Part shown: piece by piece, positions 256 to 21,665 of the stretch
Numbering within the stretch: the first letter of the stretch is position 1
How the letters are laid out: every line of letters starts with the position of its first letter
Origin: the human T2T-CHM13v2.0 reference genome, Homo sapiens
Strand: one strand, 5' to 3'
Length of the DNA stretch: 64,000 nucleotides
Assembly: GCF_009914755.1 (NCBI RefSeq)
Contig: NC_060927.1
Program-made: the position numbers and the translations under genes
The notes under the pieces: model-generated
Database searches by the model: none
Told to the model about the DNA's origin: nothing
Seen by the model: the letters and a program-made list of their open reading frames with translations, nothing else

Positions 256-500
256 TCTACTTTGTTTCTTTTATACATATATATAAGTAGATATTTATCA
301 TACTTTAAGTTCTAGGGTACATGTGCACAACGTGCAGGTTTGTTACATATGTATACATGTGCCATGTTGGTGTGCTGCACCCATAAACTTGTCATTTACA
401 TTAGGTATATCTCCTAATGCTATCCCTTCCCTCTTCCCCCACCCCACAACAGGCCCCAGTGTGTGATGTTCCCCTTCCTGTGTCCAAGTGTTCTCATTGT

Positions 501-3500
501 TCAGTTCCCACCTATGAGTGAGAACATGCGGTGTTTGGTTTTTTGTTCTTGTGATAGTTTGCTGAGAATGATGGTTTCCAGCTTCATCCATGTCCCTATA
601 AAGGACATGAATTCATCATTTTTTATGGCTGCATAGTATTCCATGGTGTATATGTGCCACATTTTCTTAATCCAGTCTATCATTGTTGGACATTTGAGTT
701 GGTTCCAAGTCTTTGCTATTGTGAATGGTGCCGCAATAAACATACATGTGTGTGTGTCTTTATAGCAGCATGATTTATAGTCCTTTGGGTATATACCCAG
801 TAATGGGATGGCTGGGTCAAATGGTATTTCTAGTTCAATATCCCTGAGGAATCGCCACACTGACTTCTACAATGGTTGAACTAGTTTACAGTCCCACCAA
901 CAGTGTAAAAGTGTTCCTATTTCTCCACATCCTCTCCAGCACCTGTTGTTTCCTGACTTTTTAATGATTGCCATTCTAACTGGTATGAGATGGTATCTCA
1001 TTGTGGTTTTGATTTGCATTTCTCTGATGGCCAGTGATGATGAGCATTTTTTCATGTGTCTTTTGGCTGCATAAATGTCTTCTTTTGAGAAGTGTCTGTT
1101 CATATCCTTCGCCCACTTTTTGATGGGGTTGTTTTTTTCTTGTAAATTTGTTTGAGATCATTGTAGATTCTGGATATTAGTCCTTTGTCAGATGAGTAGA
1201 TTGCAAAAATTTTCTCCCATTTTTTAGGTTGTCTGTTCACTCTGATGGTAGTTTCTTTTGCTGTGCAGAAGCTCTTTAGTTTAATTAGATCCCATTTGTC
1301 AATTTTGGCTTTTGTTGCCATTGCTTTTGGTGTTTTAGACATGAAGTCCTTGCCCATGCCTATGTCCTGAATGGTATTGCCTATGTTTTCTTCTAGGGTT
1401 TTTATGGTTTTAGGTCTAACATTTAAGTCTTTAATCCATCTTGAACTAATTGTTGTATAAGGTGTAAGGAAAGGATCCAGTTTCAGCTTTCTACATATGG
1501 CTAGCCAGTTTTCCCAGCACAATTTGTTAAATAGGGAATCCTTTCCCCATTTCTTGTTTTTGTCAGGTTTGTCAAAGATCAGATAGTTGTAGATGTGTGG
1601 TATTATTTCTGAGGGCTCTGTTCTGTTCCATTGGTCTGTATCTCTGTTTTGTTACCAGTACCATGCTGTTTTGGTTACTGTAGCCTAGTAGTATAGTTTG
1701 AAGTCAGGTAGCATGATGCCTCCAGCTTTGTTCTTTTGGCTTAGGATTGACTTGGCAATGCGGGCTCTTTTTTGGTTCCATATGAACTTTAAAGTAGTTT
1801 TTTCCAATTCTGTGAAAAAAGTCATTGGTAGCTTGATGGGGATGGCATTGAATCTATAAGTTACCTTGGGCAGTATGGCCATTTTCACGATATTGATTCT
1901 TCCTATCCATGAGCATGGAATGTTCTTCCATTTGTTTGTATCCTCTTTTATTTCCTTGAGCAGTGGTTTGTAGTTCTCCTTGAAGAGGTCCTTCACATCC
2001 CTTGTAAGTTGGATTCCTAGGTATTTTATTCTCTTTGAAGCAATTGTGAATGGTAGTTCACTCATGATTTGGCTCTCTGTTTGTCTGTTATTGGTGTATA
2101 GGAATGCTTGTGATTTTTGCACATTGATTTTGTATCCTGAGACTTTGCTGAAGTTGCTTATCAGCTTAAGGAGATTTTGGGCTGAGACGATGGGGTTTTC
2201 TAAATATACAATCATGTCATCAGCAAACAGGGACAGTTTGACTTCCTCTTTTCCTAATTGAATACCCTTTATTTCTTTCTCTTGCCTAATTGCCCTGGCC
2301 AGAACTTCCAACACTATGTTGAATAGGAGTGGTGAGAGAGGGCATCCCTGTCTTGTGCCAGTTTTCAAAGGGAATGCTTCCAGTTTTTGCCCATTCAGTA
2401 TGATATTGGCTGTGGGTTTGTCATAAATATCTCTTATTATTTTGAGATACGTCCCATCAATACCTAATTTATTGAGAGTTTTTAGCATGAAGGCTGTTGA
2501 ATTTTGTCAAAGGCCTTTTCTGCATCTATTGAGATAATCATGTTGTTTTTGTCTTTGGTTCTGTTTATATGATGGATTATGTTTATTGATTTGCGTATGT
2601 TGAACCAGCCTTGCATCCCAGGGATGAAGCCCACTTGATCATGGTGGATAAGCTTTTTGATGTGCTTCTGGATTTCGTTTGCCAGTATTTTATTGAGGAT
2701 TTTCGCATTGATGTTCTTCAGGGATATTGGTCTAAAATTCTCTTTTTTGGTTGTGTCTCTGCCAGGCTTTGGTATCAGGATGATGCTGGCCTCATAAAAT
2801 GAATTAGGGATGATTCCCTCTTTTTCTATTGATTGGAATAGTTTCAGAAGGAATGGTACCAGCTCCTCCTTGTACCTCTGGTAGAATTCTGCTGTGAATC
2901 CGTCTGGTGTTGGACTTTTTTTGGTTGGTAAGCTATTAATTATTGTCTCAATTTCAGAGCCTGTTATTGGTCTATTCAGGGATTCAGCTTCTTCCTGGTT
3001 TAGTCTTGGGAGGGCCTATGTGTCCAGGAATTTATCCATTTCTTCTAGATTTTCTAGTTTATTTGTGTAGAAGTGTTTATAGTATTCTCTGATGGTAGTT
3101 TGTATTTCTGTGAGATCAGTGGTGATCTCCCCTTTATAATTTTTTTATTGCATCTATTTGATTCTTCTCTCTTCTTCATTAGCCTTGCTAGCGGTCTATC
3201 AATTTTGTTGATCTTTTCAAACAACCAGCTCCTGGATTCATTGATTTTTTGAAGAGTTTTTTGTGTCTCTATCTCCTTCAGTTCTGCTCTGATCTTAGTT
3301 ATTTCTTGCCTTCTGCTAGCTTTTGAATGTGTTTGCTCTTGCTTCTCTAGTTCTTTTAATTGTGATGTCAGGATGTCAATTTTAGATCTTTCCTGCTTTC
3401 TCTTGTGGGCATTTAGTGCTATAAATTTCCCTCTACACACTGCTTTAAATGTGTCCCAGAGATTCTGGTGTGTTGTGTCTTTGTTCTCATTGGTTTCAAA

Positions 3501-4321
3501 GGACATCTTTATTTCTGCCTTCATTTCGTTATGTATCCATTAATCATTCAGGAGCAGGTTGTTCAGTTTCCATATAGTTGAGCAGTTTTGAGTGAGTTTC
3601 TTAATCCTGAGTTCTAGTTTGATTGCACTGTGGTCTGAGAGACAGTTTGTTATAATTTCTGTTCTTTTACATTTGCTGAGGAGTGCTTTACTTCCAACTA
3701 TGTGGTCAATTTTGGAATAAGTGCGGTGTGGTGCTGAGAAGAATGTATATTCTGTTGATTTGGGGTGGAGAGTTCTGTAGATGTCTATTAGGTCCACTTG
3801 GTGCAGAGCTGAGTTCAATTCCTGGGTATCCTTGTTAACTTTCTGTCTCGTTGATCTGTCTAATGTTGACAGTGGGGTGTTAAAGTCTCCCATCATTGTT
3901 GTGTGGGAGTCTAAGTCTCTTTGTAGGTCTCTAAGGCCTTGCTTTATGAATCTGGGTGCTCCTGTATTGGGTGCAGATATATTTAGGATAGTTAGCTCTT
4001 CTTGTTGAATTGCACCCTTTACCATTATGTAATGGCCTTCTTTGTCTCTTTTGATCTTTGTTGGTTTAAAGTCTGTTTGATTATCAGAGACTAGGATTGT
4101 AATCCCTGCCTTTTTTGTTTTCCATTTGCTTGGTAGATCTTCCTCCATCCCTTTATTTTGAGCCTATATGTGTCTCTGCACGTGAGATGGGTTTCCTGAA
4201 TACAGCACACCAATGGGTCTTGACTCTTTATCCAATTTGCCACTCTCTGTCTTTTAATTGGAACATTTAGCCCATTTACATTTAAGGTTAATATTGTTAT
4301 GTGTGAATTCGATCCTGTCAT
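501..4321 (-). pseudogene. L1 ORF2 (endonuclease/RT) of copy A, with several frameshifts and stops
   Basis: Fragment ORFs 4091-4321, 3540-4148, 3054-3524, 1685-2488, 1100-1522, 867-1103 and 501-860 all match L1 ORF2p. Confidence 0.95.
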
Positions 4322-20600: not shown

Positions 20601-21450
20601 AGGACTTCATGTCTAAAACACCAAAAGCAATGGCAACAAAAGCCAAAATTGACAAATGGGATCTAATTAAACTAAAGAGCTTCTGCACAGCAAAAGAAAC
20701 TACCATCAGAGTGAACAGACAACCTAAAAAATGGGAGAAAATTTTCGCACCCTACTCATCTGACAAAGGACTAATATCCAGAATCTACAATGAACTCAAA
20801 CAAATTTACAAGAAAAAAACAACCCCATCAAAAAGTGGGCAAAGGATATGAACAGACACTTCTCAAAAGAAGACATTTATGCAGCCAAAAGACACATGAA
20901 AAAATGCTCATCATCACTGGCCATCAGAGAAATGCAAATCAAAACCACAATGAGATACCATCTCATACCAGTTAGAATGGCAATCATTAAAAAGTCAGGA
21001 AACAACAGGTGCTGGAGAGGATGTGGACAAATAGGAACACTTTTACACTGTTGGTGGGACTGTAAACTAGTTCAACCATTGTGGAAGTCAGTGTGGCGAT
21101 TCCTCAGGGATCTAGAACTAGAAATACTATTTGACCCAGCCATCCCATTACTGGGTATATACCCAAAGGACTATAAATCATGCTGCTATAAAGACATATG
21201 CACATGTATGTTTATTGCGGCACTATTCCCAATAGCAAAGACTTGGAACCAACCCAAATGTCCAACAATGATAGACTGGATTAAGGAAATGTGGCACATA
21301 TACACCATGGAATACTATGCAGCCATAAAAAATGATGAGTTCATGTCCTTTGTAGGGACATGGATGAAACTGGAAATCATCATTCTCAGTAAGCTATCGC
21401 AAGGACAAAAAACGAAACACCGCATGTTCTCATTCATAGATGGGAATTGA
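17644..21450 (+). pseudogene. L1 ORF2 of copy B, disrupted
   Basis: Endonuclease 17644-18255, RT 19230-20372 (QGCPLSP, FADDM), C-terminus 20848-21450. Confidence 0.96.
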
Positions 21451-21665
21451 ACAGTGAGAACACATGGACACAGGAAGGGGAACATCACACTCTGGGGCCT
21501 GCTGTGGGGTGGGGGGAGGGGGGAGGGATAGCATTAGGCGATATACCTAATGCTAAATGAGGAGTTAATGGGTGCAGCACACCAGCATGGCACATGTATA
21601 CATATGTAACTAACCTTCACATTGTGCACATGTACCCTAAAACTTAAAGTATAAAAAAAAAAAAA

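What the first reader, a model, noticed from the sequence alone, without database searches (positions are those of the whole stretch)
271..21665. Two inverted L1s of different subfamilies share private mutations in patches: gene conversion and a candidate toggling 9.5-kb inversion
Seen: L1-A (271-6069, minus) and L1-B (15527-21665, plus) are head-to-head, with separate TSDs and different host repeats, so they are independent insertions. Their ORF1 5' parts differ at about 57 of 377 nt by my manual count, and their 3' UTRs differ too (aatgtaaatgac/ccctagaac vs aatgctaaatga/ccctaaaac). Yet A 4450-4827 and B 17136-17514 are identical apart from one indel. The copies also share lesions absent from the L1 consensus as I recall it: an ORF1 frameshift (..FISEEK*), NEKMLRS and KGWV, ORF2 VPIKRQRV and DPLV, LNISAP, a premature stop after LLLND (3540-3542 / 18419-18421), IRDIY, QPKKW, a 4-bp deletion giving KKTTPS (about 1130 / 20820) and HLIPV. 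Other lesions are private, such as a 14-bp deletion near 19073 in B only. Known: independent insertions cannot inherit the same inactivating mutations from an active source element. Inference: repeated ectopic gene conversion, or paired crossovers, after insertion, which is typical of recurrent NAHR inversions. The host repeats are colinear across both L1s, so this allele has the ancestral spacer orientation.
Basis: partly seen in the sequence, partly recalled or inferred. Interest (0 to 1): 0.85.

Follow-up and report, generated by a model that had tools for sequence, protein, structure and literature searches.

The report
Gene conversion between two inverted L1s
Two dead L1 retrotransposons that landed separately, head to head, in an intron of human CHCHD6 have since copied short stretches of sequence into one another, a known repair by-product; nothing shows that the DNA between them flips.

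Summary
L1-A (271-6069, minus) and L1-B (15527-21665, plus) are independent insertions of different subfamilies. They differ at 13% of sites in the 5'UTR and ORF1 5' half, and at about 6% in ORF2.

They also share patches of near-identity that carry variants absent from other genomic L1 copies. In A 4900-2700 they share 16 rare substitutions. For 1539 control pairs the mean is 0.68 and the 99th percentile is 3. A 378-nt stretch is identical apart from one indel, and the next best genomic copy is 97% identical. The shared ORF2 stop codon, the ORF1 frameshift and most of the listed amino-acid changes are private to the pair.

Two listed lesions are not private. The 4-bp deletion is in 4 of 6 comparators. 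KGWV is a CpG change found in 9 of 54.

Trees place A and B as sisters only in the patches. At subfamily-diagnostic sites both copies carry the A-type state there, so the exchange was non-reciprocal: several ectopic gene conversion events of different ages, mostly A into B.

The toggling inversion is unsupported. Both elements are unmixed along their length and keep matching flanks. Overall identity is about 93-94%. The locus is absent from three inversion resources I searched. This is an ordinary process in a clean example.

The parts
271..6069 (-). L1-A: 5'-truncated L1PA element (5799 nt) of the 'a' type, the older of the two by private-change count. ORF1 and ORF2 are both broken.
   Evidence: Full-length relatives at 94% identity. 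Carries the a-state at nearly all of the 108 diagnostic sites. 146 private changes against 84 in B.
15527..21665 (+). L1-B: full-length L1PA element (6139 nt) of the 'b' type. It has its own lesions: a 2-bp deletion at about 18159, a second stop at 18464 and a 14-bp deletion at about 19073.
6070..15526 (.). 9.46-kb spacer between the two 5' ends. It starts with an antisense Alu (about 6070-6365).
4151..4827 (-). Main conversion region in A (ORF1 3' half, inter-ORF spacer and ORF2 start). A was probably the donor.
   Evidence: 13 differing columns of 679, against 13% in the 5' region and 5.8% elsewhere. 14 shared rare variants and 4 diagnostic sites where both copies are a-type. A and B are sisters with support 1.0.
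17136..17814 (+). Main conversion region in B, the acceptor. One b-type site is retained at 17679.
4450..4827 (-). Core of the main region. It is identical to B 17136-17514 apart from one indel, which points to the youngest event.
   Evidence: In the genome search B is the only 100% hit and the next are 97% (40 scored of 3139 candidates).
3536..3543 (-). Short shared patch of three rare substitutions within 8 nt, including the shared ORF2 stop (A 3540-3542 / B 18419-18421). The matching stretch in B is 18418-18425. The tract is at most 58 nt between flanking A/B differences.
   Evidence: Only A and B reach 100% in the genome search.
1844..2433 (-). Second, older exchange region in ORF2 (B 19519-20108). 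B is a-type at 4 diagnostic sites, both copies are b-type at 1, and one site (A 2276) stays a in A and b in B.
   Evidence: A and B are sisters in A 2700-1900 with support 0.946.
924..1376 (-). 3' ORF2 stretch with identity runs of 171 and 186 nt (B 20575-21027). Probably converted, but few comparators cover it.
   Evidence: B is the best non-self hit (795 bits against 773 for the next). Only A and B are 100% over 1206-1290.
256..269 (.). Outer copy of the Alu target-site duplication. The partner is at 6366-6381. Together they bracket the Alu plus L1-A, so L1-A sits in the Alu's A-tail and its flanks are colinear.
6366..6381 (.). Inner copy of the Alu target-site duplication.
15519..15526 (.). 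L1-B target-site duplication, 5' copy. The 3' copy is at 21667-21674.

Best explanation
Two L1PA elements of different subfamilies inserted independently, 5' end to 5' end and 9.5 kb apart, in a CHCHD6 intron. L1-A is the older and sits in an Alu tail. L1-B is the younger.

After insertion, DNA breaks in one copy were repaired several times using the nearby inverted copy as template. This is non-allelic, non-crossover gene conversion. It copied short tracts, including the donor's own decay mutations, into the other copy.

The clearest event or events run from A into B over A 4827-4151 (about 680 nt). They carry a 1-bp ORF1 frameshift and 13 rare substitutions. The 378-nt core of this region looks reconverted more recently. 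Further tracts lie at A 3543-3536 (which carries the shared stop), at A 2433-1844, and probably at A 1376-924. At A 3826 and A 2288 both copies carry the b-type state, which suggests B into A.

Shown: the mosaic pattern, its significance, its privacy to the pair, and non-reciprocity. Inferred: the repair mechanism, the number of events and the timing. No inversion is needed to explain the data, and this haplotype is in the ancestral orientation.
For: 1. Different origin. At 108 diagnostic sites A is a-type and B is b-type almost everywhere. In ORF1 5' and in A 4150-2700 the nearest neighbours of A and B belong to different comparator groups.

2. Patches. Identity runs of 280, 186 and 171 nt give permutation P of 0.0003, 0.0004 and below 0.0001.

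3. Privacy. A and B share 16 rare substitutions in A 4900-2700. For 1539 control pairs the mean is 0.68, the 99th percentile is 3 and the maximum is 33. Genome searches give 100% for A and B only: the 378-nt core (next 97%), the 104-nt ORF2-start patch (next 98%) and the 60-nt stop patch (next 98%).

4. Incongruent trees. A and B are sisters in the tract (support 1.0) and in A 2700-1900 (0.946), and not in the two other regions tested.

5. Non-reciprocal exchange, A as donor. In the main tract B has a-type states at four sites. Shared plus A-only changes there number 19 in 677 nt (2.8%), which matches A's overall 2.7%. B's overall rate is 1.6%.

6. Events of different ages. The main tract has 5 A-only and 5 B-only later changes, but its core has none apart from one indel. 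The second region has 3 A-only and 6 B-only.
Against: No outgroup or second haplotype could be examined, so the pre-conversion states, the direction and the dates are inferred from one genome.

Comparators were the best-scoring hits of a search that scores only 40 candidates per query, so they are not a random sample.

Beyond A 1800 only 1-10 comparators cover the alignment. The 3' tracts therefore rest mainly on identity runs and two genome searches.

B keeps a b-type site (17679) inside the main tract, and A 2276 stays a in A and b in B inside the second. The tracts are therefore discontinuous or composite.

One control pair (L028/L029) shares more rare variants (33) than A and B do. Sharing can therefore arise in other ways, here probably a segmental duplication, although that sharing is spread evenly rather than clustered.

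Two listed lesions are common in other copies.
Confidence: 0.85

Rival explanations
1. The patches are footprints of crossovers: the spacer inverted by NAHR between the L1s and later re-inverted at a different point, perhaps repeatedly (a toggling inversion). Segments were swapped between A and B as a result.
For: The architecture fits known inversions. Inverted LINE pairs of about 6 kb with 2-10 kb spacers are listed as polymorphic inversions, for example HsInv0017, HsInv0055 and HsInv0253 (Table S1 of PMC13629690), and HsInv0341 with L1PA3 repeats (PMC3961182). Conversion and crossover are alternative outcomes of the same repair. One diagnostic site (A 2749) is swapped between A and B.
Against: Paired crossovers swap segments reciprocally. 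In every patch both copies carry the same type: a/a at A 4812, 4400, 4271, 4151, 2426, 2189, 2120 and 1906, and b/b at A 3826 and 2288. The swapped site is polymorphic among the comparators (a=22, b=4 of 27) and is flanked within 200 nt by unswapped sites. Overall identity is about 93-94%, against a median of 97.1% for L1 pairs at inversions (PMC9675761). The locus is not in the 612-region catalogue or in the two other supplements searched.
Confidence: 0.05
2. The shared variants were not exchanged. They were inherited from related source elements, or arose twice at mutation hot spots.
For: This is true for some of them. The 4-bp deletion in a short tandem motif is in 4 of 6 comparators, and about half of the best genomic hits have the same length. 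KGWV is a CpG change in 9 of 54. Single rare variants do recur in other copies: many hits lie one or two mismatches away.
Against: The combinations are unique to A and B. No comparator carries more than 2 of the 20. Sharing is far above the empirical null. The variants are clustered in patches that also switch subfamily type, which shared ancestry cannot produce.
Confidence: 0.04
3. The near-identical tracts are an assembly or polishing artefact: reads from one L1 were used to correct the other.
For: Not testable here, because no reads or second assembly were available.
Against: Each tract is bordered and interrupted by copy-specific differences. Each 6-kb L1 sits in unique flanks. The older tracts carry later private mutations, which an artefact would not produce. 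That long reads span elements of this size is my own knowledge, not a tool result.
Confidence: 0.03

Closest known systems
Non-allelic (ectopic) gene conversion between neighbouring transposable elements, best documented for Alu pairs
   Same: Short non-reciprocal tracts pass between nearby dispersed repeats, and non-diagnostic (private) mutations are shared between neighbours. The review PMC8230782 (passages) says Alu conversion acts within about 10 kb and falls with distance, and that old inactive elements can act as donors. Here the spacer is 9.5 kb and the older element is the main donor.
   Different: The partners are 6-kb L1s of different subfamilies in inverted orientation. There are several tracts of different ages in one pair. 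The same review says most TE conversion studies concern Alu. My searches found no genome-wide study of L1-L1 neighbour conversion. Older single-locus L1 reports that I recall were not retrieved.
Inversions by NAHR between inverted LINE pairs (InvFEST entries such as HsInv0055, HsInv0253, HsInv0341)
   Same: Two inverted full-length L1s flank a spacer of a few kb.
   Different: No second orientation is known for this locus, and it is absent from the catalogues searched. Identity is about 93-94%, against a median of 97.1% for L1 pairs at inversions. The elements are not chimeric at their inner ends.
Arm-to-arm gene conversion in large palindromes (human Y palindrome P6)
   Same: Inverted repeats around a spacer exchange sequence by conversion, and inversions are rare (abstract of PMC3723533, as listed).
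   Different: Palindrome arms derive from one duplication and are kept above 99.9% identical. Here the arms have independent origins, and conversion has been too rare to homogenise them.

Membership tests
Non-allelic gene conversion between paralogous repeats | The two copies have independent origins, not one duplication | tested here: met
   Different subfamily states at nearly all 108 diagnostic sites. 13% divergence in the 5' 1.25 kb. B has its own target-site duplication, and A is nested in an Alu tail.
Non-allelic gene conversion between paralogous repeats | Tracts of identity significantly longer than the background divergence allows | tested here: met
   Permutation P of 0.0003, 0.0004 and below 0.0001 for the three longest runs.
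Non-allelic gene conversion between paralogous repeats | Derived variants shared by the pair and absent from other family members | tested here: met
   16 shared rare substitutions, against a mean of 0.68 and a 99th percentile of 3 in 1539 control pairs. Unique 100% genome hits. Exceptions: the 4-bp deletion and KGWV.
Non-allelic gene conversion between paralogous repeats | Phylogenetic incongruence along the sequence | tested here: met
   A and B are sisters in 2 of the 4 regions tested (support 1.0 and 0.946) and lie far apart in the other 2.
Non-allelic gene conversion between paralogous repeats | Non-reciprocal transfer | tested here: met
   Both copies carry the same subfamily state at 10 diagnostic sites within the patches.
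Non-allelic gene conversion between paralogous repeats | Pre-conversion state seen in an outgroup or in another haplotype | not testable with these tools
   Only this one human assembly could be searched.
Recurrent (toggling) NAHR inversion | Inverted repeats flank the segment | tested here: met
Recurrent (toggling) NAHR inversion | Both orientations observed among haplotypes or species | tested here: inconclusive
   No other haplotype was available. There is no entry at chr3 126.75-126.85 Mb (hg38) in Table S1 of PMC13629690 (612 regions). There is none at the hg38 or CHM13 coordinates in the supplements of PMC12350169 and PMC12350158, and both of those files were cut when stored. My hg38 coordinates come from a recalled CHCHD6 start position.
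Recurrent (toggling) NAHR inversion | Reciprocal exchange or chimeric repeats with swapped inner flanks | tested here: not met
   Each element keeps its own type from end to end, and its flanks match. The only swapped site is a polymorphic one.
Recurrent (toggling) NAHR inversion | High identity between the repeats | tested here: not met
   93.96% over aligned bases, or 405 differing columns of 5818. L1 pairs at inversions have a median of 97.1% (PMC9675761). The longest perfect run is 280 nt.

The most novel reading that the evidence does not exclude
The pair is an unrecognised, low-frequency or recurrent inversion site. On this reading, conversion keeps re-creating perfect-identity stretches of 280-380 nt that occasionally resolve as crossovers. 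Some human haplotypes or apes would then carry the 9.5-kb CHCHD6 intronic segment inverted, flanked by chimeric L1s. Catalogues would have missed it because balanced inversions flanked by TE-only repeats are hard to call and are filtered out of repeat-pair screens (PMC13629690 Methods).
Probability: 0.07. Interest if true: 0.5.

Novelty: new member of a known kind. Interest (0 to 1): 0.3.

Why it matters
The practical lesson concerns how old L1 copies are read. Conversion from a neighbour can move inactivating mutations and subfamily-diagnostic bases between independent insertions. This distorts age estimates based on divergence, subfamily calls, and the rule that shared lesions imply shared descent. 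In B, about 680 nt now look older and of another subfamily.

The locus is a well-resolved case, with several tracts of different ages and a visible direction. It could calibrate genome-wide screens for L1-L1 conversion, which appears to be less studied than Alu-Alu conversion (PMC8230782).

It has no evident functional consequence. Both elements are dead and intronic. The inversion idea, which would have been the more interesting part, is not supported.

Tried and rejected
1. Fetching more comparators. Three A-like full-length elements were obtained singly. The 3' 1.8 kb therefore has only 1-10 comparators.

2. A genome search with A 1861-2019 returned nothing, because its words are too common. 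This is uninformative.

3. My first control count treated gap columns as bases, and large shared deletions inflated it. I redid it with nucleotides only.

5. Porubsky et al. 2022 (PMC9563103) is not held, and the supplements of its bioRxiv version are closed. Its calls are included only indirectly, through the merged catalogue of PMC13629690.

6. A search for papers with both CHCHD6 and inversion listed 7 papers. None of the titles or abstract openings concerns this locus.

7. I did not name the subfamilies (L1PA3, 4, 5 and so on), because no repeat library was available. 'a' and 'b' are my own labels, defined by comparator groups.

8. Rough dating from private-change counts suggests the main tract is about a quarter of A's age. 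This rests on 5+5 events, and I did not convert it to years with any tool.
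Full report
**What is there**

The window is an intron of human CHCHD6 (hub annotation). 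An inverted-repeat scan finds 11 collinear arm pairs between 294-6063 and 15892-21658. Global alignment of the reverse complement of A with B shows three regimes:
- no similarity in the flanks;
- 82-92% identity per 100 nt over the first 1.2 kb (5'UTR and ORF1 5' half);
- about 91-100% over the rest, including three consecutive 100-nt windows at 100%.

By region, the differing columns are 167 of 1250 (13.4%) for A 6069-4828, 13 of 679 (1.9%) for A 4827-4151, and 225 of 3889 (5.8%) for A 4150-271.

- 58 of 377 nt differ from the ORF1 start, and the four 3'UTR motifs each occur in the stated copy only.
- A 4450-4827 equals B 17136-17514 apart from one indel.
- The 14-bp deletion is in B only.

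**Independent insertions, ancestral orientation**

B has a target-site duplication at 15519-15526 and 21667-21674.

I found no clean duplication for A itself. Instead, a 14-16-nt direct repeat (256-269 and 6366-6381) brackets the antisense Alu (about 6070-6365) together with L1-A. L1-A therefore lies in the Alu's A-tail, and the DNA on both sides of it is colinear.

**Comparators**

The window's own genome can be searched. I obtained three sets:
- 29 copies that are the best hits to A 3300-3800 and cover about A 1800-5300;
- 29 copies that are the best hits to B and cover its 5' 2.4-6 kb;
- three full-length relatives of A.

These are best-scoring hits, because only 40 candidates are scored per search, so they are not a random sample. 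Downstream of about A 1800 only 1-10 comparators cover the alignment.

**Different subfamilies**

108 sites separate the three A relatives from at least 80% of the B-like copies. A has the 'a' state and B the 'b' state at almost all of them, including all but three of the 51 sites in A 6051-5005.

In A 3300-3800, B is 95.2% identical to A, while 29 unrelated copies are 96.4-97.4% identical. Outside the patches, therefore, the two are not especially close.

**Patches**

In 200-column windows, A-B identity exceeds every comparator (n=52-54) from A 4869 to 4070, and again at A 2448-2249 and 2048-1849. Elsewhere it is ordinary or low.

A run-length permutation over A<=5000 (218 differences, 4741 columns, 10000 permutations) gives P=0.0003, 0.0004 and 0/10000 for the three longest identity runs of 280, 186 and 171 nt.

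**Shared private variants**

Twenty A=B variants are carried by at most 10% of 35-57 comparators, and 13 of them lie in A 4747-4211. No comparator carries more than two of the twenty.

As an empirical null I counted shared rare substitutions for all pairs among the 56 sequences that cover A 4900-2700. A-B has 16. The 1539 other pairs have a mean of 0.68, a 99th percentile of 3 and a maximum of 33. That maximum is a chr11 pair (L028/L029) whose sharing is spread evenly, as a segmental duplication would give. A first version of this control was inflated by gap columns.

Genome-wide searches give 100% for A and B only in three places:
- the 378-nt core (next best 97%; 40 scored of 3139 candidates);
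- the 104-nt ORF2-start patch (next 98%);
- the 60-nt patch with the stop (next 98%).

**The listed lesions**

Carriers among comparators (except where stated):

| Lesion | Carriers |
|---|---|
| ORF1 1-bp deletion | 1/54 |
| K>N and A>S in NEKMLRS | 0/57 each |
| A>V, H>Q, L>V in VPIKRQRV | 0/57, 0/57, 1/57 |
| S>L in DPLV | 0/59 |
| Y>S in LNISAP | 0/59 |
| Stop after LLLND | 1/60 |
| A>D in IRDIY | 0/39 |
| T>K in QPKKW | 0/7 |
| T>I in HLIPV | 1/6 |

The stop aligns with a Tyr in solved human ORF2p, and a second stop, private to B, lies 15 codons later. ORF1 matches solved ORF1p up to FISE and then leaves the frame.

Two items fail the privacy test. The 4-bp deletion lies in a short tandem motif and is present in 4 of 6 comparators. 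By my count from the hit coordinates, about half of the 38 best non-self hits have the query's length. KGWV is a CpG transition carried by 9 of 54.

**Conversion, not crossover**

In A 4827-4151, B carries a-type states at four diagnostic sites (A 4812, 4400, 4271, 4151), and A is a-type there too. The transfer was therefore non-reciprocal, from A into B.

Shared plus A-only changes in this region number 19 in 677 nt (2.8%). This equals A's overall private rate of 2.7% and exceeds B's 1.6%.

B keeps one b-type site (17679) inside the region, so the tract is discontinuous or composite.

After the transfer each copy gained about five changes, yet the 378-nt core has none apart from one indel. 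That points to a later, second event in the core.

A second region, A 2433-1844, shows the same pattern. B is a-type at four sites and both copies are b-type at one. There are more later changes (3 A-only, 6 B-only), so this event is older.

At A 3826 both copies are b-type, which suggests transfer from B into A.

The stop patch is at most 58 nt long between flanking differences.

Maximum-likelihood trees agree. A and B are sisters in the main tract (support 1.0; distance 0.018 against 0.052 to the next sequence) and in A 2700-1900 (support 0.946). In ORF1 5' and in A 4150-2700 they sit with different comparator groups.

**The inversion**

Nothing in this haplotype shows an inversion. Both elements keep their own type from the inner end to the outer end, and their flanks match.

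Paired crossovers would swap segments reciprocally. The only swapped diagnostic site (A 2749) is polymorphic among the comparators.

Identity is 93.96% over aligned bases. PMC9675761 reports a median of 97.1% for L1 pairs at inversions (passages).

The architecture does resemble known LINE-flanked polymorphic inversions (Table S1 of PMC13629690, part 1 read; Table 1 passage of PMC3961182). However, the locus does not appear in any of three resources:
- Table S1 of PMC13629690, which lists 612 regions. I read sections 4 and 13 of this paper. Its screen of repeat pairs excludes TE-only repeats, so the locus would be listed only if it had been called before.
- The supplement of PMC12350169, which lists inversion genotype tables 37 and 38.
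- The supplement of PMC12350158.

Three caveats apply. The last two files were cut when stored. My hg38 coordinates rest on a recalled gene start. Porubsky 2022 is not held.

**What is known**

Conversion between neighbouring TEs is established for Alu, within about 10 kb and falling with distance, and old elements can act as donors (PMC8230782, passages). That review says most such work concerns Alu.

My searches listed no systematic study of L1 neighbours. I recall older single-locus L1 reports but did not retrieve them.

**Verdict**

This is a real and cleanly resolved instance of a known process. The inversion part remains speculation.

Noticed in passing
window about 1132-1140 (A) and 20813-20821 (B); also loci L061, L062, L032, L023: A 4-bp deletion in a short tandem motif near the end of ORF2 recurs in 4 of 6 unrelated comparators. 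By my count of hit lengths, about half of the 38 best non-self hits to A 924-1376 have the query's length. This could be a slippage hot spot or an abundant lineage of copies that were dead on arrival. The hit sample is biased towards the query.
   Followed up: partly
L028 (G000:C11:89965368-89968868) and L029 (G000:C11:49218871-49222371): These two chr11 L1 copies share 33 rare substitutions spread evenly over 2.2 kb, more than any other pair. They look like one L1 copied by a segmental duplication rather than a case of conversion.
   Followed up: no
window 256-269, 6070-6365, 6366-6381: L1-A is nested in the A-tail of an antisense Alu. The Alu's own target-site duplication brackets both elements. 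By recollection only, the Alu sits in what looks like the 3' end of a much older L1.
   Followed up: partly
window 18159, 18462-18464, about 19073: L1-B has lesions that A lacks: a 2-bp deletion that shifts the ORF2 frame, a second stop codon 15 codons after the shared one, and a 14-bp deletion.
   Followed up: yes
window 4079-4081, 4855-4877: L1-A has clusters of private changes just outside or at the edge of the converted region: a 3-nt insertion, and five substitutions within 23 nt next to the left boundary of the main tract. Such clusters next to a tract boundary could be by-products of repair, or chance.
   Followed up: no
window 10650-10807 and 23445-23602: Another inverted pair, 158 nt long and 78% complementary, probably two short interspersed repeats. 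One lies inside the spacer and one beyond L1-B.
   Followed up: no
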